Virus record (IMG/VR): IMGVR_UViG_2547132280_000007
Source: a virus
Lineage: Duplodnaviria > Heunggongvirae > Uroviricota > Caudoviricetes
Length of the DNA: 31,479 bases
Reading direction: 5' to 3' (one strand)
A program made the translations under genes and the position numbers. This document shows positions 19,057-28,246 of this stretch, piece after piece. Positions within the stretch are counted from its first letter, which is position 1. The number at the start of each line of letters is the position of its first letter. Under the pieces are notes generated by a model that was not told where the DNA came from, searched no databases, and saw nothing but the letters and a program-made list of their open reading frames with translations.

Positions 19057-19229
19057 TGTCAGGAGTCCTGAATAGTGATTAGAGGAGTCACATGTCGGCA
19101 TCAGTTTCCCGACGATGCGCATCCTCCGCCATCAGTCCCGGATGGCTTATCACTGACACAACAGCACCTTAGCGAATCGCGGGGCGCGACTCAGTAGCCT
19201 TGCCGTGTATTCATCACGGCGAGGTATTC
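19057..19229. promoter_or_regulatory. divergent late promoter region between O and P
   Basis: 173-bp non-coding spacer between the divergent O and P starts; contains the dyad GTCGG-N10-CCGAC (about 19094-19113). Confidence 0.5.
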
Positions 19230-21002
19230 ATGACCATCACCACAGACACCACTCTTTTACACGACCCGCGTCGTCAGGCGGCGCTGCTGTACTGGCAGGG
19301 ATTTTCCGTGCCGCAGATTGCCGCCATGTTGCAGATGAAACGCCCGACGGTGCAGAGCTGGAAACAGCGCGACGGCTGGGACAGCGTTGCCCCCATCAGC
19401 CGTGTCGAAATGAGTCTGGAAGCGCGGCTGACCCAGCTCATCATCAAACCGCAGAAAACCGGCGGTGACTTCAAGGAAATTGACCTGCTCGGACGCCAGA
19501 TTGAACGACTGGCACGGATAAACCGCTACAGTCAGACCGGCAACGAGGCAGACCTTAATCCGAACGTCGCTAACCGCAACAAAGGCGGGCGTCGCAAACC
19601 GAAAAAGAATTTTTTCAGTGACGAGGCCATCGAAAAGCTGGAGCAGATTTTCTTTGAGCAGTCTTTCGACTATCAGTTGCACTGGTATCGCGCCGGGCTT
19701 GAGCACCGCATCCGCGATATCCTGAAATCCCGCCAGATTGGCGCAACGTTTTATTTTTCCCGCGAGGCGCTGCTGCGTGCCCTGAAAACCGGTCATAACC
19801 AGATTTTTCTGTCGGCCAGTAAAACGCAGGCGTATGTGTTCCGCGAATACATCATCGCCTTTGCCCGTCTGGTTGACGTTGACCTGACCGGTGACCCGAT
19901 TGTCCTGGGCAATAACGGCGCAAAACTGATTTTTCTCGGCACCAACTCCAACACCGCACAGAGCCATAACGGTGACCTGTACGTCGACGAGATTTTCTGG
20001 ATCCCGAATTTTCAGGTACTGCGTAAGGTGGCATCAGGTATGGCCTCACAGAGTCACCTGCGCTCGACCTATTTCTCCACCCCGTCCACGCTGGCGCACG
20101 ACGCCTACCCGTTCTGGTCGGGTGAACTGTTTAACCGGGGACGCGCCAGCGCCGCTGAACGCGTGGAAATCGACGTCAGTCATAACGCCCTTGCCGGTGG
20201 GCTTCTCTGTGCGGACGGCCAGTGGCGGCAGATTGTCACCATTGAGGACGCCCTGAAAGGCGGCTGCACATTGTTCGACATTGAGCAGCTTAAACGCGAA
20301 AACAGCGCCGACGATTTTAAAAACCTGTTCATGTGTGAATTTGTTGACGACAAGGCATCGGTGTTCCCGTTCGAGGAGCTGCAACGCTGCATGGTCGACA
20401 CGCTGGAAGAATGGGAAGACTATGCGCCGTTTGCCGCAAATCCGTTCGGCTCACGTCCGGTATGGATTGGTTACGACCCGTCACACCGTGGCGACAGCGC
20501 CGGATGCGTGGTACTGGCACCGCCGGTGGTGGCCGGTGGCAAATTCAGAATACTTGAGCGTCACCAGTGGAAAGGCATGGACTTTGCCACCCAGGCGGAA
20601 TCCATCCGCAAACTCACCGAAAAATACAACGTCGAATACATCGGAATTGATGCCACCGGCCTCGGTGTCGGCGTGTTCCAGCTCGTGCGCTCGTTCTATC
20701 CCGCCGCGCGCGATATCCGCTACACGCCGGAAATGAAAACCGCAATGGTGCTCAAGGCAAAAGACGTTATCCGCCGTGGCTGTCTGGAATATGACGTCAG
20801 CGCCACCGACATCACCAGCTCGTTTATGGCTATCCGCAAGACCATGACCAGCAGCGGACGCAGTGCCACCTATGAGGCCAGCCGCAGCGAGGAAGCCAGC
20901 CACGCCGACCTCGCCTGGGCGACCATGCACGCCCTGTTAAATGAGCCACTCACCGCCGGTATCAGCACCCCGCTGACATCCACCATTCTGGAGTTTTACT
21001 GA
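19230..21002 (+). CDS. P: terminase large (ATPase) subunit gpP, 590 aa
   Basis: Start at MTITTDTTLL... (ATG 19230, GAGGT 4 nt upstream) gives 590 aa, the P2 gpP length. Confidence 0.9.
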   Translation: MTITTDTTLLHDPRRQAALLYWQGFSVPQIAAMLQMKRPTVQSWKQRDGWDSVAPISRVEMSLEARLTQLIIKPQKTGGDFKEIDLLGRQIERLARINRYSQTGNEADLNPNVANRNKGGRRKPKKNFFSDEAIEKLEQIFFEQSFDYQLHWYRAGLEHRIRDILKSRQIGATFYFSREALLRALKTGHNQIFLSASKTQAYVFREYIIAFARLVDVDLTGDPIVLGNNGAKLIFLGTNSNTAQSHNGDLYVDEIFWIPNFQVLRKVASGMASQSHLRSTYFSTPSTLAHDAYPFWSGELFNRGRASAAERVEIDVSHNALAGGLLCADGQWRQIVTIEDALKGGCTLFDIEQLKRENSADDFKNLFMCEFVDDKASVFPFEELQRCMVDTLEEWEDYAPFAANPFGSRPVWIGYDPSHRGDSAGCVVLAPPVVAGGKFRILERHQWKGMDFATQAESIRKLTEKYNVEYIGIDATGLGVGVFQLVRSFYPAARDIRYTPEMKTAMVLKAKDVIRRGCLEYDVSATDITSSFMAIRKTMTSSGRSATYEASRSEEASHADLAWATMHALLNEPLTAGISTPLTSTILEFY

Positions 21003-22036
21003 TGAGCAAGAAAAAAGGGAAAACACCGCAACCTGCGGCAAAAAAAATGACCGCCAGCGCCCCGAAAATGGAGGCATTCACCTTTGGTGAGCCGGTGCCG
21101 GTACTCGACCGGCGTGACATTCTGGATTACGTCGAGTGCATCAGTAACGGCAGATGGTATGAGCCACCGGTCAGCTTTACCGGTCTGGCGAAAAGCCTGC
21201 GTGCTGCCGTGCATCACAGCTCACCGATTTACGTCAAACGTAATATTCTGGCCTCGACATTTATCCCGCATCCATGGCTTTCCCAGCAGGATTTCAGCCG
21301 CTTTGTGCTGGATTTTCTGGTATTTGGTAATGCATTTCTGGAAAAGCGTTACAGCACCACCGGTAAAGTTATCAGGCTGGAAACCTCACCGGCAAAATAT
21401 ACCCGCCGTGGTGTGGAAGAGGATGTTTACTGGTGGGTGCCGTCCTTCAACGAGCCGACAGCCTTCGCGCCCGGCTCCGTGTTTCACCTGCTGGAGCCGG
21501 ATATTAATCAGGAGCTGTACGGCCTGCCGGAATATCTCAGCGCCCTTAACTCTGCCTGGCTGAATGAGTCGGCCACGCTGTTCCGCCGCAAGTATTACGA
21601 AAATGGCGCACATGCCGGATACATCATGTACGTCACTGATGCCGTGCAGGATCGCAACGATATCGAAATGCTTCGCGAAAACATGGTCAAGTCGAAAGGC
21701 CGCAACAACTTTAAAAATCTGTTTCTCTATGCCCCGCAGGGGAAAGCCGACGGCATTAAAATTATCCCGCTCAGTGAAGTGGCAACGAAGGACGATTTTT
21801 TTAATATCAAAAAAGCCAGCGCCGCTGACCTGCTGGACGCGCACCGCATCCCCTTTCAGTTGATGGGCGGCAAGCCGGAGAACGTCGGGTCGCTGGGTGA
21901 TATTGAGAAAGTGGCAAAGGTCTTTGTCCGCAATGAACTTATCCCGTTACAGGACAGGATTCGGGAAATAAACGGCTGGCTCGGCCAGGAGGTCATCCGC
22001 TTTAAAAACTACTCACTGGACACTGACAACGGCTGA
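21002..22036 (+). CDS. Q: portal protein gpQ, 344 aa
   Basis: 344 aa; start overlaps the P stop (TGATG). Confidence 0.9.
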   Translation: MSKKKGKTPQPAAKKMTASAPKMEAFTFGEPVPVLDRRDILDYVECISNGRWYEPPVSFTGLAKSLRAAVHHSSPIYVKRNILASTFIPHPWLSQQDFSRFVLDFLVFGNAFLEKRYSTTGKVIRLETSPAKYTRRGVEEDVYWWVPSFNEPTAFAPGSVFHLLEPDINQELYGLPEYLSALNSAWLNESATLFRRKYYENGAHAGYIMYVTDAVQDRNDIEMLRENMVKSKGRNNFKNLFLYAPQGKADGIKIIPLSEVATKDDFFNIKKASAADLLDAHRIPFQLMGGKPENVGSLGDIEKVAKVFVRNELIPLQDRIREINGWLGQEVIRFKNYSLDTDNG

Positions 22037-22041
22037 ACATC

Positions 22042-22063
22042 GCCGCCTGCGGGCGGCTTTTTT
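22042..22063 (+). terminator. intrinsic terminator after Q
   Basis: gccgcc-tgcg-ggcggc stem-loop (22042-22057) followed by TTTTTT (22058-22063). Confidence 0.7.
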
Positions 22064-22205: not shown

Positions 22206-22224
22206 GTGCTTTCCCCGCCTCGCC
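22206..22224. other. cos: cos cohesive-end site (19 nt)
   Basis: gtgctttccccgcctcgcc is the reverse complement of GGCGAGGCGGGGAAAGCAC, which I recall as the P2 19-nt cohesive end. It lies about 170 bp past the Q stop, the expected position. Confidence 0.6.
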
Positions 22225-22299
22225 CGCCCGCTTCATGGGGCGGTTTTAATGCAGTTGCATGAGTACGTTGGAACCGCACTGGTGCTGACGATACCCAAT

Positions 22300-22320
22300 C
22301 AAACCTTGCTGTATAATTAC
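22300..22320 (+). promoter_or_regulatory. candidate sigma70 promoter for the cargo operon
   Basis: TG immediately followed by a perfect TATAAT (22310-22317), about 130 nt upstream of the cargo gene start; the -35 element is weak. Confidence 0.3.
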
Positions 22321-22450
22321 TTGCGAATTCACGCACATCAACGCGAATCTTACATCATGAATAATTCATTTATGGCTACAGAATGAGTATATTGCATGTT
22401 ATGAAATAACTTTGTGCTCCTTCTCGTGGACATGTTCAACGGAGATCCAG

Positions 22451-23572
22451 ATGATTGCTGATTCAGAAATACTTTATGTTCCGCTAGATGATTTGGAACT
22501 TGACACAGAAAACCCAAGACTTCCTGAAGGCGTGTCTCGTGACCAATTGGGAATGATTAACTACATAGCAACCTCAACATCTATCGAAGACTTAATGAGT
22601 GCTATTGCGGAAAATGGTTTTTTCCCTGGAGAACCATTGATTGTCATTCCTGATAGTGGAGCGCCGGGGAAGTACATTGTAGTTGAAGGAAACCGTCGCC
22701 TATCCGCGGTCAAATTATTACGCGATCCGACACTATGTGAAAATCCAAGTGCTCGACTACGAGAAATTGCATCAAATGCAAAACATACGGTCGATCGTGT
22801 TCCTGTCATTGAGCGCCAAACAAGAGAAGAGATTCTTCCGTACCTTGGTTTCAGACATATTACTGGTGTCAAACAATGGGAACCCTTATCAAAAGCTCGA
22901 TATATTAAACAGCTTTTTGATTATACCAATGCAAATCTGGATCCAATGCTACGCTACTATGAGGTTGCCAGAGCTATTGGCAGTCGTAGGGATCATATCA
23001 AGCGTAACCTAGACGCTTTAGCGGTGTATGAAATCATTAAAAAAAATGATTTTTATGGTATTGAAAAGCTAGATGAAGAAACGATTAAATTTTCAGTATT
23101 ATCAACAGCACTTGCTGATGAGCGGTTAGGCCAGTTTGTCGGAGTTTCAATCGAAGACGATGGAGACACAATACCAAGTCATCCTATCATCAATTCTAAG
23201 AGTTTAAAGAACAAAGAAATAAAAGAACTAACTGAATGGTTATATAAAAAAGGCGAGGATAAAAAAACTCGTGTAGGAGAATCACGTAATTTAAGAGAAC
23301 TAGCTGCTGTTGTAAGTAGCCCTAAGGCATTGGAGCAATTCCGAATGGGGGCTCCACTCGCAGTTGCCTATCAATTGACATCTGATATTACTAAGGACTT
23401 TCTCCAGTTACTTTATCAAGTTGAAGCAGCTTTGATAGATGCAGCAGGCATGGTTGCCACGGTAGAGTATGATAGACAGGCCCATGAAGTAGCACGAAGA
23501 ATCAATAAACATATTAAGCTTATAGGTTCTGAAATAGCAGAGAAAAATAGCAGAGGTGATGATGACTTTTGA
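22451..23572 (+). CDS. ParB/Srx-like N-terminal domain protein, 373 aa (cargo gene 1)
   Basis: Start at ATG 22451 with GGAG 6-7 nt upstream. The N-terminal 150 aa follow the ParB N-domain pattern: LDDLELDTENPR, IVVEGNRRLSAVKLL (GxRR box), VPVIER. AT-rich. Confidence 0.7.
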   Translation: MIADSEILYVPLDDLELDTENPRLPEGVSRDQLGMINYIATSTSIEDLMSAIAENGFFPGEPLIVIPDSGAPGKYIVVEGNRRLSAVKLLRDPTLCENPSARLREIASNAKHTVDRVPVIERQTREEILPYLGFRHITGVKQWEPLSKARYIKQLFDYTNANLDPMLRYYEVARAIGSRRDHIKRNLDALAVYEIIKKNDFYGIEKLDEETIKFSVLSTALADERLGQFVGVSIEDDGDTIPSHPIINSKSLKNKEIKELTEWLYKKGEDKKTRVGESRNLRELAAVVSSPKALEQFRMGAPLAVAYQLTSDITKDFLQLLYQVEAALIDAAGMVATVEYDRQAHEVARRINKHIKLIGSEIAEKNSRGDDDF

Positions 23573-24551
23573 AGTAGGAGTTATGCATCCCAACTCTCCT
23601 CATTTGTTTGCAGATTTAGCCGAGTTACTCACGGTAATTAATTATACCGGACGTAACTCACTACATAAAAATGATTTAGATTCAGTAAGAAAATTCGGCA
23701 TAACAAGCGTTGAAGAAATTGATGAAGAATGTAATTCTGAAGAAGAAATTAATGGAGACGCTGAGAGAAATGATCGTTTTGAAGAGCAACTCGAAGATGT
23801 TTGGACACAACTCGAATATAGAGAAAGTGCTCTTGGAAAAATATATCCATTTATAATTTCAGGTGATGAGATAATTATTAAAGAAAATCTAAACCAACAA
23901 CAACGAATATATGTTTTTCTTCTTTGCTGCTCTAGACTTAGATCCTTTAAGTCGATTAAAGGAGCAGCACAACGTTGGGCAAAGAGCTTTGCCAGAGTAT
24001 GTAAAGTAGCAATGATTTCTCTCTTACCTGCACATGGCACCGTAAGAATTTTTGATGCTAACTCCGATGATAGGCAAAATTATTATGGAACAAATCTTCG
24101 GACAGCTCTACAAACTTTAGGAAAAGATCTTGGAGTTTGTAGTTTAAACACAAGGGAAATAAATAGAGCTCCCACATCTGGTGATGCCGGGTTTGACCTA
24201 ATTGCTACAGTGGAATTTCCTGATGGTCAAACTAGCAACTATGGAATTCTTGGTCAATGTGGTGCACAAGAAACAGGGTGGCCAAGCAAAACATTAGAGG
24301 CTAACGTGTTAAAACTGACCACCTATTTCCAAATTGCGTTCCAGCATCCATCAACAATGTTCACGCCTGTTTTCTATCGGGAAGCAAATGGCGAATGGGT
24401 AAGCACACACGCAACCGCTGGGGTATTATTATTAGATAGGTTGAGAATCATATATCTACTTGATAAGGCAAACCAATGGGAAGCGATAACTACCTCTGAT
24501 TGGTTTCGCGAATTTGAGGAAGAGCTTTATACATTAAATCCAGAGCCTTAA
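23562..24551 (+). CDS. hypothetical protein, about 329 aa, translationally coupled to gene 1 (cargo gene 2); possible nuclease or effector
   Basis: Overlaps the gene 1 stop by 11 nt. Start is uncertain (GTG 23556, ATG 23559/23562 or ATG 23583); AGAGG lies 5 nt before ATG 23562. No confident motif seen. Confidence 0.6.
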   Translation: MTFEVGVMHPNSPHLFADLAELLTVINYTGRNSLHKNDLDSVRKFGITSVEEIDEECNSEEEINGDAERNDRFEEQLEDVWTQLEYRESALGKIYPFIISGDEIIIKENLNQQQRIYVFLLCCSRLRSFKSIKGAAQRWAKSFARVCKVAMISLLPAHGTVRIFDANSDDRQNYYGTNLRTALQTLGKDLGVCSLNTREINRAPTSGDAGFDLIATVEFPDGQTSNYGILGQCGAQETGWPSKTLEANVLKLTTYFQIAFQHPSTMFTPVFYREANGEWVSTHATAGVLLLDRLRIIYLLDKANQWEAITTSDWFREFEEELYTLNPEP

Positions 24552-24558
24552 TAGCTTA

Positions 24559-25503
24559 TCAATCCCATAATTCTATTGGCAATGCCTTCGTTACAGCTTC
24601 AAAAAGCGGCGGAGGCACTGCATTACCAACCACCGTGTATTTCATGCCAAGACTTGCAGCATTTGTTTCTGGAAACACTAGATCCTCAAACCCTTGTAAT
24701 AGTGCTGCCTCTCGAAAACTGAATCTGCGAGCTCTCCGATCCTCAACAAATCTCCATTCATCAGTTCTTACTTTCTCCATCGGAGGACTGACAGGATGCA
24801 ACGGCATATGCCTTGCATTAGCAACTATTGTCTTTGAAATTTGATCCCAATCCTGGCGACGATTGCGAGACATATAATACCAATGGAATCCCATATCATA
24901 AAATTCACCTTCTGGCCATTCAGGTAAATGCCCTATAGCATCTTTAATAGTAACATAGTTGACGCCAGTTGCTGGCCCATGAGTTGGCTGAGGGAACTCG
25001 TACTTAACTTTGAAATCATTACGGATTCCTACGATAAATATTCTTTTTCTTTCCTGCGCTACTCCATATTCAGCCGCATTTAAAACTTTTGCGGAAACAG
25101 TATAACCTGCTTCAGTAAAAACCCTGATCTGGTCAGATAACAAATGCTCAAAATTTTTTCTAACCATACCAGACACGTTTTCTACTATAAAAGCTTTAGG
25201 CTTTATATTGTTTAAAGCTCTAGCAAACTCTAAATAAAGAGTATTAATTTTTCGATCGGCTTTACGCGCACCACCCTGGCTGAATCCCTGACATGGATAA
25301 CAACCTACCAGCAAATCAGATTTAGGAAAAGTAGTTACATCAGCAATATTGCCTAATATGTAATCAGTTTCTGGATGATTGGCAATATAAACATCGCGCG
25401 CATACGGCAAGATATCGTTGGCCATAAGCACATCAAAGCCGGCTCTCAAAACCCCCGCATCGGAACCACCGCATCCAGAAAAAAGTGAAACTACTGTTGG
25501 CAT
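24559..25503 (-). CDS. DNA (cytosine-5)-methyltransferase, 314 aa
   Basis: C5-MTase motifs in canonical order: I SLFSGCGG, IV GCYPCQGFS (catalytic Pro-Cys), VI FIVENV, VIII QERKRIFIVG, X VVGNAVPP. Strong SD (GGAGGGGATA) before the ATG. Confidence 0.85.
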   Translation of the reverse strand: MPTVVSLFSGCGGSDAGVLRAGFDVLMANDILPYARDVYIANHPETDYILGNIADVTTFPKSDLLVGCYPCQGFSQGGARKADRKINTLYLEFARALNNIKPKAFIVENVSGMVRKNFEHLLSDQIRVFTEAGYTVSAKVLNAAEYGVAQERKRIFIVGIRNDFKVKYEFPQPTHGPATGVNYVTIKDAIGHLPEWPEGEFYDMGFHWYYMSRNRRQDWDQISKTIVANARHMPLHPVSPPMEKVRTDEWRFVEDRRARRFSFREAALLQGFEDLVFPETNAASLGMKYTVVGNAVPPPLFEAVTKALPIELWD

Positions 25504-25704
25504 TATCCCCTCCTAAAACCGACCGCGTATTATAGCGAAAGCCTCCGTATATAGAAGCAGGTTTTGAACAAGATTATGTTCTCACTTTTTAACAACTGTG
25601 GCCATAAAAAATTAGCTCAATATGAAAAACAGATTAATTCATTGTTTTTCATAGAAAAATTCCACAAACACTATAACATTCCCACAACACTGCAGTAGTA
25701 GTCA

Positions 25705-27981
25705 TTATTGTTTAATTGAAAAAACCGACCACTCATTAGCGACCGGATACGTGAATTTTTTCCCGTCATAATTTACGGTTGCCCCACGCGCCAGCGCCTC
25801 AAGCTCCCATCGCTGCGGCCTGATACCGTTCTGAGCAAGGTCAACGCGGATACGGGTAATTTGCATTCGTTCCGACCGGGTCAGTCTGGCCGATGGTGCC
25901 ATTTCATGCGGTTTTAACGGGCTTCCGTTTCTTTGCTGGCGATTTGGTGTTCTCAGGCCATGTTTTAATGCACCTCTGAGCGCCCTCACGACCTCCGGGT
26001 CATTCCATTCGATGACACCGTCATCAACCAGATTAAGCACTGCTGCGGCGTGCTCAGAAGGTGTGGGGGCTGGTAACGAAGTATCACCACCGGTGAGCTT
26101 TCCACAGTTATTGACAGGACTCCGAGGCGCGGCGATGCCGCTTTTTAAAGTCAAAGGCTCAACGACCGGAACTTTCGGCACAATGCGCCAGTCCGTCGTT
26201 CTGGTGATATGAATATGACGCGCGCCGAGATGCGGCGCGTAAATGCCGACCACTCTCTCGACTTCTTCCTCGTACTCGTTAACGTCATCCGACGGGCTAC
26301 GGGCAACCCTGACAGTCTGACAATCGCGCGGGACATTTGCCCCACCCTGCGCGCTGATATACAACGCAAAATCACCACTGTCTGCGGCAGCGCGAGCAGC
26401 CTCGACGCGTTCGTCAAACTCATCAGCAATACTGACGCCGCGAGGCAATTTGCGTAGTTCACGGTAAGCCCCCATTGTCGGCAGTCCAACCGTTTTAAAT
26501 TGCGGGATGCGCCACGTTGACGCCCATGCGGTAACAGCCGCGGCAGTATCTTTAAGCGGCTTACCGGTATCGTTATCGAGCTGACCATCCAGTGCATAGC
26601 CGTCGATATTTTTTGAAATGTATTTCGCGATATATCCCGCAGCACCGCCCCGGTTAAGGTGCTTTGCCTGAAAACGGTTTCGCGCGGCTCCTCTTTCGTC
26701 ACCATCCTCTTTGAGCGCATAGCGACGCATGATTTCGATAATCTGGTTACGCTGGCGTGGATTACAAAAAAGCATCATATGCCAGTGCGGCGTTCCGTCG
26801 TGGTGTGGCTCGACGACACGCAAACCGTAGACCTGTAAATCATTATCCTTAAATGCCGTGCGCATCAGGCTCCAGATGCGGCAGAGATAACGCTGCGCAT
26901 CCTTTGGATTAAATGCCTCATCGTTCCAGCCGTGATTAAGCTGAACGGTTTTACTTTCGCCTTTTCTGACCTGACGAGTCGGGTGATACTTTGACGGCGC
27001 GGTCAGCGTGATAAACATCCCCACATCACCCTCTGCGGCGGCGTAACGCTCAATACCGGCAATGGTGTTCATCAGCTCCATCCGGCGAATTTCAGGATTA
27101 GAAATACTGCCCATCACCTTACTGATAAGGTCGATGCGCTCGCCGGTTTCCCTGTTTTCAAGGTCACACGATTTAAGAAATTCCAGATTTGCCTGGCGGC
27201 GCGCACGCACATCACGAATGGCGTGTTTACTGGCATAAGGAGAACGGTCTTTATTGACCTCCCCGACAGCTATCAGTAACGCTTCATGCCAGCGCATACG
27301 CTGGCCTTTAAGCTGATGAGTCCACCACTCATCGTTAAACAGACGGGCAATGGCAGAATATGCCTGCCTCGTGGTCATCTGCCCTTTACGGTATTTTTTC
27401 CAGTAGAGCGGGGATATATTGAAAGCACGTGCAGCGCCAGCAACATGACCATAGAGGTGAGCCTGCGCCTCATCCGTAAACAGCGATTCTTTTTCGCCAT
27501 GCGCATCCACCCAGGCATCGCTGAGTTCCTCATACATCATGAAAAGCTGCGATGAGATACGGGCAACAAACTTTTTCAGCTCCTTGTCATTCATTCCCGG
27601 CAGGCGCGCATAGTGGTCACGCTCTGCCAGAAACAGTAACGACGCGTCGGTGTTCATTTCATGGCGCTGATTCACACGCTCAATGCGCGGCCATAAACGA
27701 CGCTGAAAAGTGGATGTGAGGAAATAAAACCCGTGCACCGGGCTTTTATTGCGCCGGATGTAGTCATAGCGTGAAGTAAACAGCGAGCGCAAAAAGTAAG
27801 GCAGGCGGTTAATCGTGGATAAAACACCCTGCACCTGACGCATCTCGTCACGTGTAAGGGGTCTTTCGCGCCCGACAGCCTCGCGTGGCGCGTTCCATGC
27901 ATAAGCACCGGTAAACGCCTTACCGGTGCCTGCGGCAAATACTGACGGAGGGACAAAACGCCCGGAGGCTTTAACGGCCAT
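25705..27981 (-). CDS. A: replication initiation protein gpA (rolling-circle nickase)
   Basis: Large protein directly after B and the small ORFs. Start chosen at MAVKASGRFVPP... (ATG 27981, coupled to the upstream ORF stop); the track ORF extends to 28023. Confidence 0.85.
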   Translation of the reverse strand: MAVKASGRFVPPSVFAAGTGKAFTGAYAWNAPREAVGRERPLTRDEMRQVQGVLSTINRLPYFLRSLFTSRYDYIRRNKSPVHGFYFLTSTFQRRLWPRIERVNQRHEMNTDASLLFLAERDHYARLPGMNDKELKKFVARISSQLFMMYEELSDAWVDAHGEKESLFTDEAQAHLYGHVAGAARAFNISPLYWKKYRKGQMTTRQAYSAIARLFNDEWWTHQLKGQRMRWHEALLIAVGEVNKDRSPYASKHAIRDVRARRQANLEFLKSCDLENRETGERIDLISKVMGSISNPEIRRMELMNTIAGIERYAAAEGDVGMFITLTAPSKYHPTRQVRKGESKTVQLNHGWNDEAFNPKDAQRYLCRIWSLMRTAFKDNDLQVYGLRVVEPHHDGTPHWHMMLFCNPRQRNQIIEIMRRYALKEDGDERGAARNRFQAKHLNRGGAAGYIAKYISKNIDGYALDGQLDNDTGKPLKDTAAAVTAWASTWRIPQFKTVGLPTMGAYRELRKLPRGVSIADEFDERVEAARAAADSGDFALYISAQGGANVPRDCQTVRVARSPSDDVNEYEEEVERVVGIYAPHLGARHIHITRTTDWRIVPKVPVVEPLTLKSGIAAPRSPVNNCGKLTGGDTSLPAPTPSEHAAAVLNLVDDGVIEWNDPEVVRALRGALKHGLRTPNRQQRNGSPLKPHEMAPSARLTRSERMQITRIRVDLAQNGIRPQRWELEALARGATVNYDGKKFTYPVANEWSVFSIKQ

Positions 27982-28246
27982 ATGAGCCAAAAGCCTCTGA
28001 ACAACGCTTGCTGAGTTGCTCAACCTGCGCGTTTAAATCAGCAAAAGATTTTGCGCTTCCGGTCAGAATATCGTGATGCATCAGGCCGGAAACGAGCTGG
28101 CTTAATTTCGGGTAATAACCAACCACTGCCAGCCATTCCTGACCGGCGTTTTTACCGCTTTCCGCTCTCTTTCTCTCGTGGAGAATAAACTGAAAGCTGT
28201 CACTGGTAACGACATAACGTTCGCCAATTTCAATACGAATACTCAT
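27971..28246 (-). CDS. small early protein, 91 aa (P2 orf83-position)
   Basis: Synteny between B and A; overlapping stop/start with neighbours. Confidence 0.6.
   Translation of the reverse strand: MSIRIEIGERYVVTSDSFQFILHERKRAESGKNAGQEWLAVVGYYPKLSQLVSGLMHHDILTGSAKSFADLNAQVEQLSKRCSEAFGSYGR

What the first reader, a model, noticed from the sequence alone, without database searches (positions are those of the whole stretch)
23562..24551. Uncharacterised ~330-aa partner protein translationally coupled to the ParB-like gene
The ORF overlaps the gene 1 stop by 11 nt, implying coupled expression. It has an acidic N-terminal segment (EEIDEECNSEEEINGDAERNDRFEEQLED) and no motif I recognise. It could be the nuclease or effector of the module, or the restriction enzyme partner of the adjacent MTase.
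Basis: inference. Interest (0 to 1): 0.7.

Follow-up and report, generated by a model that had tools for sequence, protein, structure and literature searches.

The report
Predicted nuclease of prophage restriction-like module
This unnamed 329-residue prophage gene most likely encodes the DNA-cutting subunit of a compact three-gene restriction-modification-like anti-phage module (ParB-like nucleotide switch, nuclease, cytosine methylase) that had been catalogued in P2-like phages but never given a function.

Summary
The ORF is real. It runs 23562-24551 (+), 329 aa, identical to RefSeq WP_000142509.1. Its start overlaps the stop of the upstream ParB-like gene by 11 nt, and this tight junction recurs in homologous loci.

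No Pfam, NCBIfam or PADLOC model matches it. It belongs to a large uncharacterised family (PHROG 3984; 1245 cluster-50 representatives).

An AlphaFold2 model (pLDDT 83.7) has a winged-helix-like N-terminal half. Its C-terminal half has a restriction-endonuclease (PD-(D/E)xK) fold.

A family profile hits one solved protein, MspJI. The hit aligns D212 and Q232 to MspJI's D…QxK motif. The canonical lysine is Gly here, but invariant K243 replaces it. Across 288 homologs a lysine sits at one position or the other, never both, which argues for an active nuclease.

A ParB/KorB-like protein with an intact EGNRR motif is always upstream. A HaeIII-like C5 methylase is adjacent in 46 of 50 loci, and in a distant clade where Vsr follows it in two of three loci.

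The locus is the P2 gpQ-gpA defence hotspot. Rousset 2022 lists this exact arrangement, and files a related trio as an untested "RM-like system". PD-λ-5 (ParB/HEPN + methylase) is a validated relative.

It is a new variant of a known kind.

The parts
22290..25700 (.). Low-GC cargo island in the P2 gpQ(portal)-gpA(replication) hotspot, holding the three-gene module
   Evidence: GC is 34-43% across 22500-25500, against 52-59% in the flanks. Backbone similarity to other P2-like phages stops at about 22261-22289. The portal gene is at 21002-22036 and the gpA-like gene at 25705-28023. Rousset 2022 defines this gpA-gpQ hotspot.
22451..23572 (+). ParB/KorB-like NTP-switch-fold protein (373 aa from ATG 22451; the mechanical ORF extends to TTG 22412). 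It has an N-terminal ParB-CTPase fold with NPR and EGNRR (box II) motifs, a ParB-type HTH, and a helical C-terminal domain ending in an acidic DDDxF tail.
23553..23560 (+). Shine-Dalgarno-like GAGGTGAT ahead of the target start, inside the 3' end of the ParB-like gene
   Evidence: Read directly from the sequence. Function is inferred.
23562..24551 (+). The finding: a 329-aa protein (WP_000142509.1; PHROG 3984) with a winged-helix-like N-terminal half, an acidic linker and a C-terminal PD-(D/E)xK-type nuclease domain
23718..23804 (+). Acidic, variable-length linker (residues 53-81)
   Evidence: The alignment shows length variation here. pLDDT is 64-71.
24024..24461 (+). Predicted nuclease core (about residues 155-300). 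Candidate active-site codons are D208 (24183-24185), D212 (24195-24197), Q232 (24255-24257), G234 at the canonical Lys position (24261-24263), K243 (24288-24290) and E246 (24297-24299).
   Evidence: The profile-to-MspJI alignment puts D212 and Q232 opposite the Asp and Gln of MspJI's D...QxK motif (residue numbers D334 and Q355 are from memory). D212 and Q232 were invariant in 258 sequences, and K243 was present in 252 of 258. K234 and K243 are mutually exclusive in 288.
24559..25503 (-). Convergent C5 cytosine DNA methyltransferase (314 aa; WP_001143636.1), HaeIII-like. Its stop codon lies 7 nt from the target's stop.
   Evidence: PF00145 5.5e-65. TIGR00675 dcm 1.4e-56. M.HaeIII 1.4e-48 over the full length including the target-recognition region (MSRNR).

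Best explanation
**What it is.** The gene encodes the DNA-cleaving effector subunit of a compact three-gene, methylation-based restriction-like defence module. The module sits as cargo in the gpQ-gpA hotspot of a P2-like prophage.

**Domains.** The protein has a winged-helix-like N-terminal region, presumably for DNA or partner binding. An acidic linker follows. The C-terminal domain is a PD-(D/E)xK nuclease of the MspJI/Mrr type. Its catalytic Asp (D212) and Gln (Q232) are canonical. The catalytic Lys has moved from the QxK position (G234 here) to K243.

**Proposed mechanism.**
- The protein is made in a fixed ratio with the upstream ParB/KorB-like protein through an 11-nt overlapping junction, and works as a complex with it.
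- The ParB-like protein contributes an NTP-dependent switch or clamp and a ParB-type HTH that finds or scans DNA.
- The nuclease cuts DNA that lacks the mark laid down by the adjacent HaeIII-like C5 methylase, which protects the host and prophage genomes.

**Shown here.**
- The ORF, its start and the overlap.
- Family conservation.
- Predicted folds of both proteins.
- Motif alignment to MspJI.
- Lysine covariation.
- Obligate ParB-like neighbour.
- Near-obligate C5 methylase neighbour, with Vsr in a remote clade.
- Hotspot location.

**Inferred.** Nuclease activity, complex formation, the NTP requirement, methylation sensitivity and anti-phage function.

For: **Sequence.**
- The profile of distant family members hits only MspJI in the PDB (E 0.016). 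It aligns sGDaGlD...GQC to SSGDGGVD...GQAK.
- One family member hits PADLOC mREase_II at 3e-4.

**Functional site.**
- D212 and Q232 were invariant in 258 sequences.
- In 288 sequences, 274 have K243 and no K234, 13 have canonical QCK and no K243, one has neither, and none has both.
- On the first 258 sequences, Fisher p = 6.5e-10, uncorrected for phylogeny.

**Partner.**
- A ParB-like gene lies immediately upstream in every locus with enough upstream DNA.
- This includes the 25%-identity relatives Wphi gp98/gp96 and Pseudomonas phage D14A.
- It also includes the QCK clade (hhalign probability 100%, E 3.7e-61).
- EGNRR and NPR motifs are kept.
- The fold is KorB/ParB-like.

**Methylase.**
- It is adjacent in 46/50 loci with enough downstream DNA.
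- It is more conserved (64-88% identity) than the target (39-60%), as is usual for restriction-modification pairs.
- In the QCK clade it is co-directional and, in L057 and L058, followed by Vsr.

**Defence context.**
- The locus is the gpA-gpQ hotspot and a low-GC island.
- Rousset 2022 Table S5A lists this exact protein trio. Table S5B system #2 is annotated 'RM-like system', with 1136 occurrences. It shows as one of its representative proteins a sequence 58% identical to the target.
- PD-λ-5 (ParB/HEPN + methyltransferase, same hotspot) is an experimentally validated relative of the ParB-like component.
Against: - The loop carrying K243 is the least confident part of the nuclease domain (pLDDT 62-64). 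I could not read model coordinates to check that K243 reaches the active site.
- The lysine swap may be a single evolutionary event in one deep clade.
- Four GTDB loci (L002, L007, L012, L014) have the ParB-like/target pair but no methylase within 2.5-6 kb (6 kb except L007). All invariant residues were checked and intact in L002, L012 and L014. L007 was not in that alignment. A classical restriction enzyme without its methylase should be lethal.
- PD-λ-5 protects best against T-even phages, whose cytosines are hypermodified. That is hard to reconcile with simple cutting of unmethylated sites.
- No experiment exists for this protein. It has no PADLOC model, and I found no entry for it among the systems Rousset tested.
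Confidence: 0.6

Rival explanations
1. The protein is a catalytically dead nuclease-fold DNA-binding or specificity subunit. It would read the sequence or methylation state. Cleavage or another effector activity would reside in the ParB-like protein, since the ParB N-terminal domain has been called a 'ParB-like nuclease domain'.
For: - The canonical QxK lysine is replaced by Gly or Ala in 242 of 258 members, including this one.
- The K243 loop has low confidence.
- Some sources name the upstream family 'ParB-like nuclease domain-containing protein'.
Against: - Strict mutual exclusivity of K234 and K243, with none of 288 sequences having both and one having neither, is what lysine relocation in a working site predicts. 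A decaying site would not show it.
- D208, D212, Q232 and W240 are invariant or nearly so across members down to 24% identity.
- The ParB-like protein keeps the NTP-binding P-motif (EGNRR), typical of switch or clamp proteins.
Confidence: 0.14
2. The pair is a modification-dependent (type IV-like) restriction system analogous to GmrSD or MspJI. A ParB-fold NTPase plus a nuclease would attack foreign modified DNA. The adjacent methylase would not be its protective partner.
For: - The closest sequence and structure matches are the modification-dependent enzymes MspJI and AspBHI. One family member hits PADLOC 'methyl-directed' mREase_II.
- From background knowledge, GmrSD-type enzymes pair a ParB-like DUF262 NTPase domain with a nuclease.
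- Methylase-less pairs exist.
- The relative PD-λ-5 works best on T-even phages with hypermodified cytosine.
Against: - The match to MspJI covers only the catalytic domain. The N-terminal half gives winged-helix matches, not the SRA-like domain.
- A C5 methylase is adjacent in 46/50 loci, and in the remote clade it is followed by Vsr in two of three loci. That is the signature of a resident m5C modification system, and an m5C-dependent nuclease beside it would be suicidal.
- The methylase is the most conserved of the three genes.
Confidence: 0.1
3. It is an abortive-infection effector. Vassallo et al. suggested 'RM+Abi' for PD-λ-5. The ParB-like sensor would detect infection and unleash the nuclease on all cellular DNA, killing the cell. 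The methylase would act only as an antidote or addiction element.
For: [quoted passage not shown]
- In the same hotspot, the effector position is taken by HEPN RNase-type proteins in sister arrangements ('DUF262 + DNA_methylase + HEPN').
Against: - No evidence of toxicity or of a trigger is available.
- A winged-helix-like domain plus a restriction-type nuclease, with a site-specific HaeIII-like methylase and Vsr, fits site-directed restriction more simply.
Confidence: 0.1
4. It is a prophage or plasmid maintenance (partition or regulatory) accessory of a ParB-type protein, with no role in defence.
For: - Several sources annotate the upstream gene as a chromosome or plasmid partitioning protein.
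- The winged-helix-like domain could be regulatory.
Against: - No ParA-type ATPase is in the module.
- The partner has a nuclease fold, not an ATPase fold.
- A methylase is always attached.
- The module is hotspot cargo that alternates with known defence systems.
- It also occurs on chromosomes outside phages.
Confidence: 0.03

Closest known systems
PD-λ-5 (Vassallo et al. 2022, PMC9519451): ParB/HEPN protein plus methyltransferase, from a P2-like prophage hotspot in ECOR7
   Same: - The ParB-like component is in the same family (PADLOC PD-Lambda-5_A 6.6e-29).
- Both sit in a hotspot next to the P2 portal gene and are linked to a DNA methyltransferase.
- The authors interpreted it as a compact RM-type defence.
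   Different: - PD-λ-5 has two genes, about 2.46 kb by the first pair of coordinates in the supplementary table. Its effector is described as a HEPN region fused to ParB.
- Here the ParB-like protein matches only profile positions 7-277 of 440 and has no conserved Rx4-6H motif.
- Here the effector is a separate 329-aa protein with a PD-(D/E)xK fold that matches no PD-Lambda-5 model.
Rousset et al. 2022 (PMC9122126): P2 hotspot system #2, 'RM-like system'
   Same: - Table S5A lists this exact trio, WP_001143636 + WP_000142509 + WP_000559725, as 'DNA_methylase + hypothetical + ParBc'.
- Table S5B system #2 shows as a representative a protein 58% identical to the target.
   Different: - That work is only a catalogue entry. 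The target is 'hypothetical'.
- The group is defined by HEPN and methylase Pfams and mixes variants.
- The system does not appear among the cloned and tested ones: no ParB or methylase term occurs in Table S2.
MspJI/AspBHI family and Mrr-type PD-(D/E)xK catalytic domains
   Same: - The GDxGxD...GQx motif aligns with MspJI's catalytic Asp and Gln. The residue numbers D334 and Q355 are from memory.
- A minority clade keeps the canonical QCK.
   Different: - There is no SRA-like modification-reading N-terminal domain. The N-terminal half is winged-helix-like instead.
- The canonical Lys is replaced by Gly, with K243 as the likely substitute.
- It has an obligate ParB-like partner and a resident C5 methylase, which modification-dependent enzymes do not have.
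Classical type II restriction-modification systems with C5 methylases (for example HaeIII or NgoMIV) and Vsr
   Same: - A nuclease-fold gene sits tail-to-tail with a C5 methylase whose recognition region resembles M.HaeIII.
- The methylase is more conserved than the nuclease.
- Vsr is linked in a remote clade.
- NgoMIV, SgrAI and HindIII are among the fold matches.
   Different: - A ParB-CTPase-fold protein is invariably co-encoded and overlaps the nuclease gene. No classical type II enzyme is known to me to need such a partner (background knowledge).
- Some loci lack the methylase.
GmrSD/BrxU/SspE-type enzymes (DUF262 ParB-like NTPase plus DUF1524 nuclease)
   Same: They share the logic of a ParB/Srx-fold NTP-binding module coupled to a nuclease module in defence (background knowledge). 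DUF262-containing arrangements occupy the same P2 hotspot.
   Different: - The nuclease here has a PD-(D/E)xK fold, not His-Me/DUF1524.
- The ParB-like protein gave no Pfam hit at all, and its homologs carry PF02195 rather than DUF262. It resembles KorB/ParB with an HTH.
- The components are separate proteins, and a methylase is attached.

Membership tests
PD-(D/E)xK nuclease superfamily (MspJI/Mrr-like catalytic domain) | Restriction-endonuclease-like alpha/beta core fold | tested here: met
PD-(D/E)xK nuclease superfamily (MspJI/Mrr-like catalytic domain) | Catalytic Asp, and Glu/Gln of the (D/E/Q)xK motif, on adjacent strands | tested here: met
   D212 and Q232 align to the Asp and Gln of MspJI's catalytic motif. 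Both were invariant in 258 family members.
PD-(D/E)xK nuclease superfamily (MspJI/Mrr-like catalytic domain) | Catalytic Lys two residues after the Glu/Gln (xK of the motif) | tested here: inconclusive
   In this protein the position is Gly234, so the canonical form is not met. However, K243 is present whenever K234 is absent (274 of 275), and absent in all 13 members with canonical QCK. This suggests a relocated lysine.
PD-(D/E)xK nuclease superfamily (MspJI/Mrr-like catalytic domain) | Metal-dependent phosphodiester cleavage | not testable with these tools
   This needs biochemistry.
MspJI family (type IIM modification-dependent enzymes) | N-terminal SRA-like domain that flips and reads 5-methylcytosine | tested here: not met
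Classical type II restriction-modification system | Cognate DNA methyltransferase encoded next to the nuclease | tested here: met
   A C5 methylase lies 7 nt away, convergent. It is adjacent in 46/50 related loci and in 3/3 loci of the QCK clade. It is absent in L002, L007, L012 and L014.
Classical type II restriction-modification system | The nuclease acts without an NTP-binding accessory subunit | tested here: not met
   A ParB-CTPase-fold gene with an intact P-motif is immediately upstream in every locus with enough upstream DNA. The two genes overlap in most loci examined. The requirement itself is inferred from the gene linkage.
Classical type II restriction-modification system | Cleavage blocked by the cognate methylation | not testable with these tools
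   This needs cleavage assays on methylated and unmethylated DNA. The methylase specificity is only guessed (GGCC-like) from similarity to M.HaeIII.
PD-λ-5 (PADLOC/DefenseFinder definition: A = ParB/HEPN, B = methyltransferase) | A protein with a ParB-like N-terminal region | tested here: met
   This concerns the neighbour gene 22451-23572, not the finding itself. It hits 25+ PD-Lambda-5_A models, best 6.6e-29.
PD-λ-5 (PADLOC/DefenseFinder definition: A = ParB/HEPN, B = methyltransferase) | HEPN effector region fused to the ParB part | tested here: not met
   The matches stop at profile position 277 of 440. The only Rx4H string (RRINKH) is not conserved in the family. The target protein matches no PD-Lambda-5 model.
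PD-λ-5 (PADLOC/DefenseFinder definition: A = ParB/HEPN, B = methyltransferase) | Methyltransferase partner of the PD-Lambda-5_B family | not tested
   A C5 methylase is present. Its top PADLOC hits are DruM2 and MTase_II. Only 25 of its 63 hits were shown, so a PD-Lambda-5_B match could not be seen.
ParABS partition system | ParA-type ATPase partner and a segregation role | tested here: not met
   No ParA-like gene is in the island. The co-translated partner has a nuclease fold.

The most novel reading that the evidence does not exclude
The ParB/KorB-like protein and this nuclease together would form a new class of restriction enzyme. A nucleotide-gated ParB-type sliding clamp would replace the helicase-like motors of type I and type III enzymes. 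The clamp would load at unmethylated recognition sites through its HTH, close on binding CTP or another NTP, and diffuse along the DNA. It would carry or activate the relocated-lysine PD-(D/E)xK subunit, perhaps docked through the ParB-like acidic C-terminal tail. This would explain why the system is so compact, why the pair is inseparable, and why sister systems swap the nuclease for HEPN effectors.
Probability: 0.2. Interest if true: 0.8.

Novelty: new variant of a known kind. Interest (0 to 1): 0.55.

Why it matters
**Abundance.** Modules of this type are abundant. Rousset's 'RM-like system' is the second most frequent cargo of the E. coli P2 hotspot, with 1136 of 18,150 loci. This exact version is in 48 of 5426 complete E. 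coli genomes.

**Spread.** Titled GTDB records with the target family span Gammaproteobacteria and Betaproteobacteria. A remote clade sits in a neighbourhood with SusC-like genes.

**Annotation gap.** Its middle gene has no annotation in Pfam, NCBIfam or PADLOC, and PHROGs lists it as 'unknown function'.

**What the assignment gives.** A nuclease fold, a candidate active site (D212, Q232, K243) and an obligate ParB-CTPase-fold partner yield concrete mutants and assays.

**Link to current work.** It connects phage defence to the recently recognised diversity of ParB-CTPase-fold switches (PMC12704722). If the ParB-like protein gates or delivers the nuclease, this would be a restriction mechanism without a known precedent.

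**Practical use.** Defence-annotation tools could add a model for this family.

Tried and rejected
- **Family libraries.** Pfam, NCBIfam and PADLOC scans of the target gave nothing meaningful, only W_rich_C at E 0.089. Scanning 38 distant members gave no Pfam hit and a single weak PADLOC mREase_II hit.
- **Close-homolog profile against the PDB.** This gave only spurious coiled or acidic matches (a GCN4 fusion, TFIIA). The more diverse profile was needed to reach MspJI.
- **HEPN in the ParB-like protein.** The only Rx4H string (RRINKH) is not conserved, so HEPN was rejected.
- **PDC-M38A as a fusion of both proteins.** Its profile is 715 positions long and matches the ParB-like protein. The target does not match it, so this was rejected.
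- **The search for related loci with the diverse alignment.** It failed because no stretch was conserved enough.
- **Literature searches.** Searching the main text of papers for the three WP accessions found nothing. They turned up only in Rousset's supplement. Searches for a mechanistic study of ParB + nuclease + methylase systems found only surveys.
- **GGCC avoidance in the window.** There are 125 sites against 170 expected. The deficit is too mild and unspecific to say anything about methylase specificity.
- **Bridging to annotated families.** The last homology search, seeded with the QCK clade, returned only 32 unannotated proteins and no bridge to a named restriction-enzyme family.
- **Active-site geometry.** I could not inspect model coordinates, so the position of K243 relative to D212 and Q232 is untested.
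Full report
**Observation**

The window is a P2-like (Peduovirus) prophage. It is 97% identical over most of its length to Yersinia phage HQ103. The terminase gene is at 19200-21002, the portal gene gpQ at 21002-22036, and the replication gene gpA at 25705-28023 on the minus strand.

Three genes lie between gpQ and gpA:
- a ParB-like gene at 22451-23572 (+);
- the finding at 23562-24551 (+);
- a convergent C5 cytosine methylase at 24559-25503 (-).

The start at ATG 23562 is supported in two ways. RefSeq annotates it (WP_000142509.1, 329 aa). The N-terminus MxFxIG is conserved in 38 homologs. The ParB-like stop is at 23570-23572, so the 11-nt overlap is real. A GAGGTGAT string precedes the start. 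Mechanical ORF calls place the genes overlapping at the junction in most of ten related loci examined.

In the family it is a variable-length linker with low model confidence.

The three genes form a low-GC island, 34-43% against 52-59% in the flanks. Similarity to other P2-like backbones ends at about 22261-22289.

**What the protein is**

No Pfam, NCBIfam or PADLOC model matches it. PHROGs places it in phrog_3984, 'unknown function'.

The family is nonetheless large. There are 252 hits in the indexed search, all named 'hypothetical' where a name is given. There are 1245 cluster-50 representatives at E<=1e-3, and the 150 listed are mostly 300-365 aa, apart from shorter fragments.

Foldseek ranks MspJI first (probability 0.93), followed by BsaWI and NgoMIV.

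Sequence gives independent support. A profile of distant family members (24-49% identity) has a single PDB hit, MspJI (E 0.016). It aligns the family's sGDaGlDlV...fGQCac with MspJI's SSGDGGVDFIG...LGQAKC. That stretch is MspJI's D...QxK catalytic motif, which I know from background knowledge of the MspJI structure papers. One family member also hits PADLOC's methyl-directed type II restriction-enzyme model (3e-4).

**Is the active site alive?**

In this protein, and in most of the family, the canonical lysine position is Gly or Ala (QCG or QCA).

I aligned 288 family members and tabulated that position (234) against the invariant-looking K243, nine residues downstream:

| K at 234 (canonical) | K at 243 | Members |
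|---|---|---|
| no | yes | 274 |
| yes (QCK) | no | 13 |
| no | no | 1 |
| yes | yes | 0 |

On the first 258 sequences, Fisher p = 6.5e-10, not corrected for phylogeny. D212 and Q232 were invariant in those 258. The QCK members form a deep clade; six compared are only 29-37% identical to each other. The switch may therefore be a single old event. Even so, the pattern is what relocation of a required catalytic lysine predicts, and not what decay of a dead site predicts.

The K243 loop is also the least confident part of the domain (pLDDT 62-64).

**Surroundings**

*The methylase.* It is most like M.HaeIII over its whole length, including the recognition region (1.4e-48). This suggests, weakly, a GGCC-like specificity.

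*Synteny across 55 loci from GTDB genomes, IMG/VR, GenBank phages and E. coli.*
- The ParB-like gene is immediately upstream of the target in every locus with enough upstream DNA.
- A C5 methylase is adjacent in 46 of 50 loci with enough downstream DNA.
- The methylase is always the most conserved gene, at 64-88% identity against 39-60% for the target.

*Remote relatives.* The trio persists in relatives only ~25% identical: phage Wphi gp98-gp96-mth and Pseudomonas phage D14A. It also persists in the QCK clade. There the methylase is co-directional and, in two of three loci, followed by a Vsr mismatch endonuclease, a typical companion of m5C systems.

*Exceptions.* Four chromosomal loci in MAGs (L002, L007, L012, L014) have the pair without a methylase. 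Two are labelled Methylococcaceae, one Methylovulum and one Crenothrix. The three I aligned (L002, L012, L014) keep all invariant residues. One Methylophilaceae locus has an extra HNH gene.

**Mechanism**

My best reading has confidence about 0.6. The protein is the nuclease subunit of a three-component restriction-modification-like defence module. I propose that:
- the overlap with the ParB-like gene fixes the stoichiometry of a complex;
- the ParB-like protein supplies NTP-dependent switching and DNA engagement;
- the target supplies cleavage through D212, Q232 and K243;
- the methylase marks self DNA.

The first block below is shown; the second is inferred.
- Shown: gene structure, conservation, predicted folds, motif alignment, lysine covariation, synteny and the hotspot context.
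- Inferred: activity, complex formation, NTP dependence, methylation sensitivity and the defence phenotype.

Rival readings:

| Rival | Confidence | Main difficulty |
|---|---|---|
| Dead nuclease fold acting as a specificity subunit | 0.14 | Disfavoured by the covariation |
| Modification-dependent type IV-like pair | 0.10 | Fits the MspJI resemblance and the methylase-less loci, but clashes with the resident m5C methylase and Vsr, and with the absence of an SRA domain |
| Abortive-infection effector | 0.10 | Suggested for PD-λ-5 by its discoverers; nothing here shows toxicity or a trigger |
| Partition or maintenance | 0.03 | No ParA; nuclease-fold partner |

**Comparison with the known**

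The locus is the gpA-gpQ hotspot of Rousset et al. 2022. It is also the portal-adjacent P2 hotspot of Vassallo et al. 2022.

Rousset's Table S5A lists exactly this trio of accessions as 'DNA_methylase + hypothetical + ParBc', with at least 98 rows in the stored part. It shows a protein 58% identical to the target as a representative. I found no sign that it was cloned or tested.

PD-λ-5 is 'ParB/HEPN, methyltransferase', a two-gene system that needed an mrr-deleted host. It is the nearest validated relative. It shares only the ParB-like part and the logic. The effector here is a different, separate protein.

The finding is therefore not a member of PD-λ-5 as defined, nor of the MspJI family, because there is no SRA domain. 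It is also not a classical type II enzyme, because of its obligate NTP-switch partner.

It is best described as a new variant of restriction-modification-like defence systems. The gene arrangement was already catalogued, but the middle gene had no assigned function.

**Verdict**

- Novelty: new variant of a known kind.
- Interest is moderate (0.55). The system is abundant and untested, and it now has a concrete active-site hypothesis.
- The more novel possibility is that a ParB-type nucleotide-gated clamp delivers a nuclease. It remains open, at a probability of about 0.2.

Noticed in passing
window 23562-23572: The T-run at 23567-23570 encodes the C-terminal Phe of the ParB-like protein (tail ...DDDF*) and Phe3 of the target (MTF...) in two frames. 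Both residues look strongly conserved in their families. That conservation cannot be separated from the overlap constraint, so the acidic DDDxF tail as a docking motif is only a guess.
   Followed up: partly
L002, L007, L012, L014 (MAGs: two labelled Methylococcaceae, one Methylovulum, one Crenothrix): The ParB-like/target pair occurs with no C5 methylase within 2.5-6 kb (6 kb except L007, whose contig ends 2.6 kb downstream). Some neighbours are housekeeping genes (GMP synthase, NadA, PPTase). All invariant residues are intact in L002, L012 and L014; L007 was not in that alignment. This does not fit a simple restriction-modification model.
   Followed up: partly
L003 6997-7929 (Methylophilaceae): An extra 310-aa HNH_2 endonuclease gene lies between the target homolog and the methylase. 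It hits PADLOC HNH at 1.3e-27 and REase_II at 2e-15.
   Followed up: partly
L057 3896-7415 and L058: A remote clade keeps the canonical QCK lysine. Its operon is co-directional: ParB-like, target homolog, C5 methylase, then Vsr. L057 sits in a neighbourhood with SusC-like genes (CarboxypepD_reg/Plug, DUF3575), which I read as Bacteroidota-like.
   Followed up: yes
Rousset 2022 Table S5A (same P2 hotspot, other E. coli genomes): [quoted passage not shown] This suggests a modular family: a ParB-fold NTPase, an interchangeable effector (HEPN or PD-(D/E)xK), and a C5 methylase.
   Followed up: no
window 22412-22451: The mechanical ORF for the ParB-like gene starts at TTG 22412 (386 aa). RefSeq and the homolog alignment support ATG 22451 (373 aa).
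   Followed up: yes
window 22042-22057 and 22224-22243: Two terminator-like hairpins follow the portal gene, just before the point where similarity to other P2-like phages ends (about 22261-22289). They mark the hotspot's left edge.
   Followed up: partly
whole window: GGCC, the site of the methylase's closest solved relative M.HaeIII, occurs 125 times against about 170 expected from a Markov model. CCGG is not depleted (253 against 219). The deficit is too weak to interpret.
   Followed up: partly
L021 (phage Wphi 26998-32684): The long-known Wphi genes orf98, orf96 and mth are a ~25-34% identity version of the same trio. gp98 carries the EGNRR motif and hits PD-Lambda-5_A at 3e-24.
   Followed up: yes
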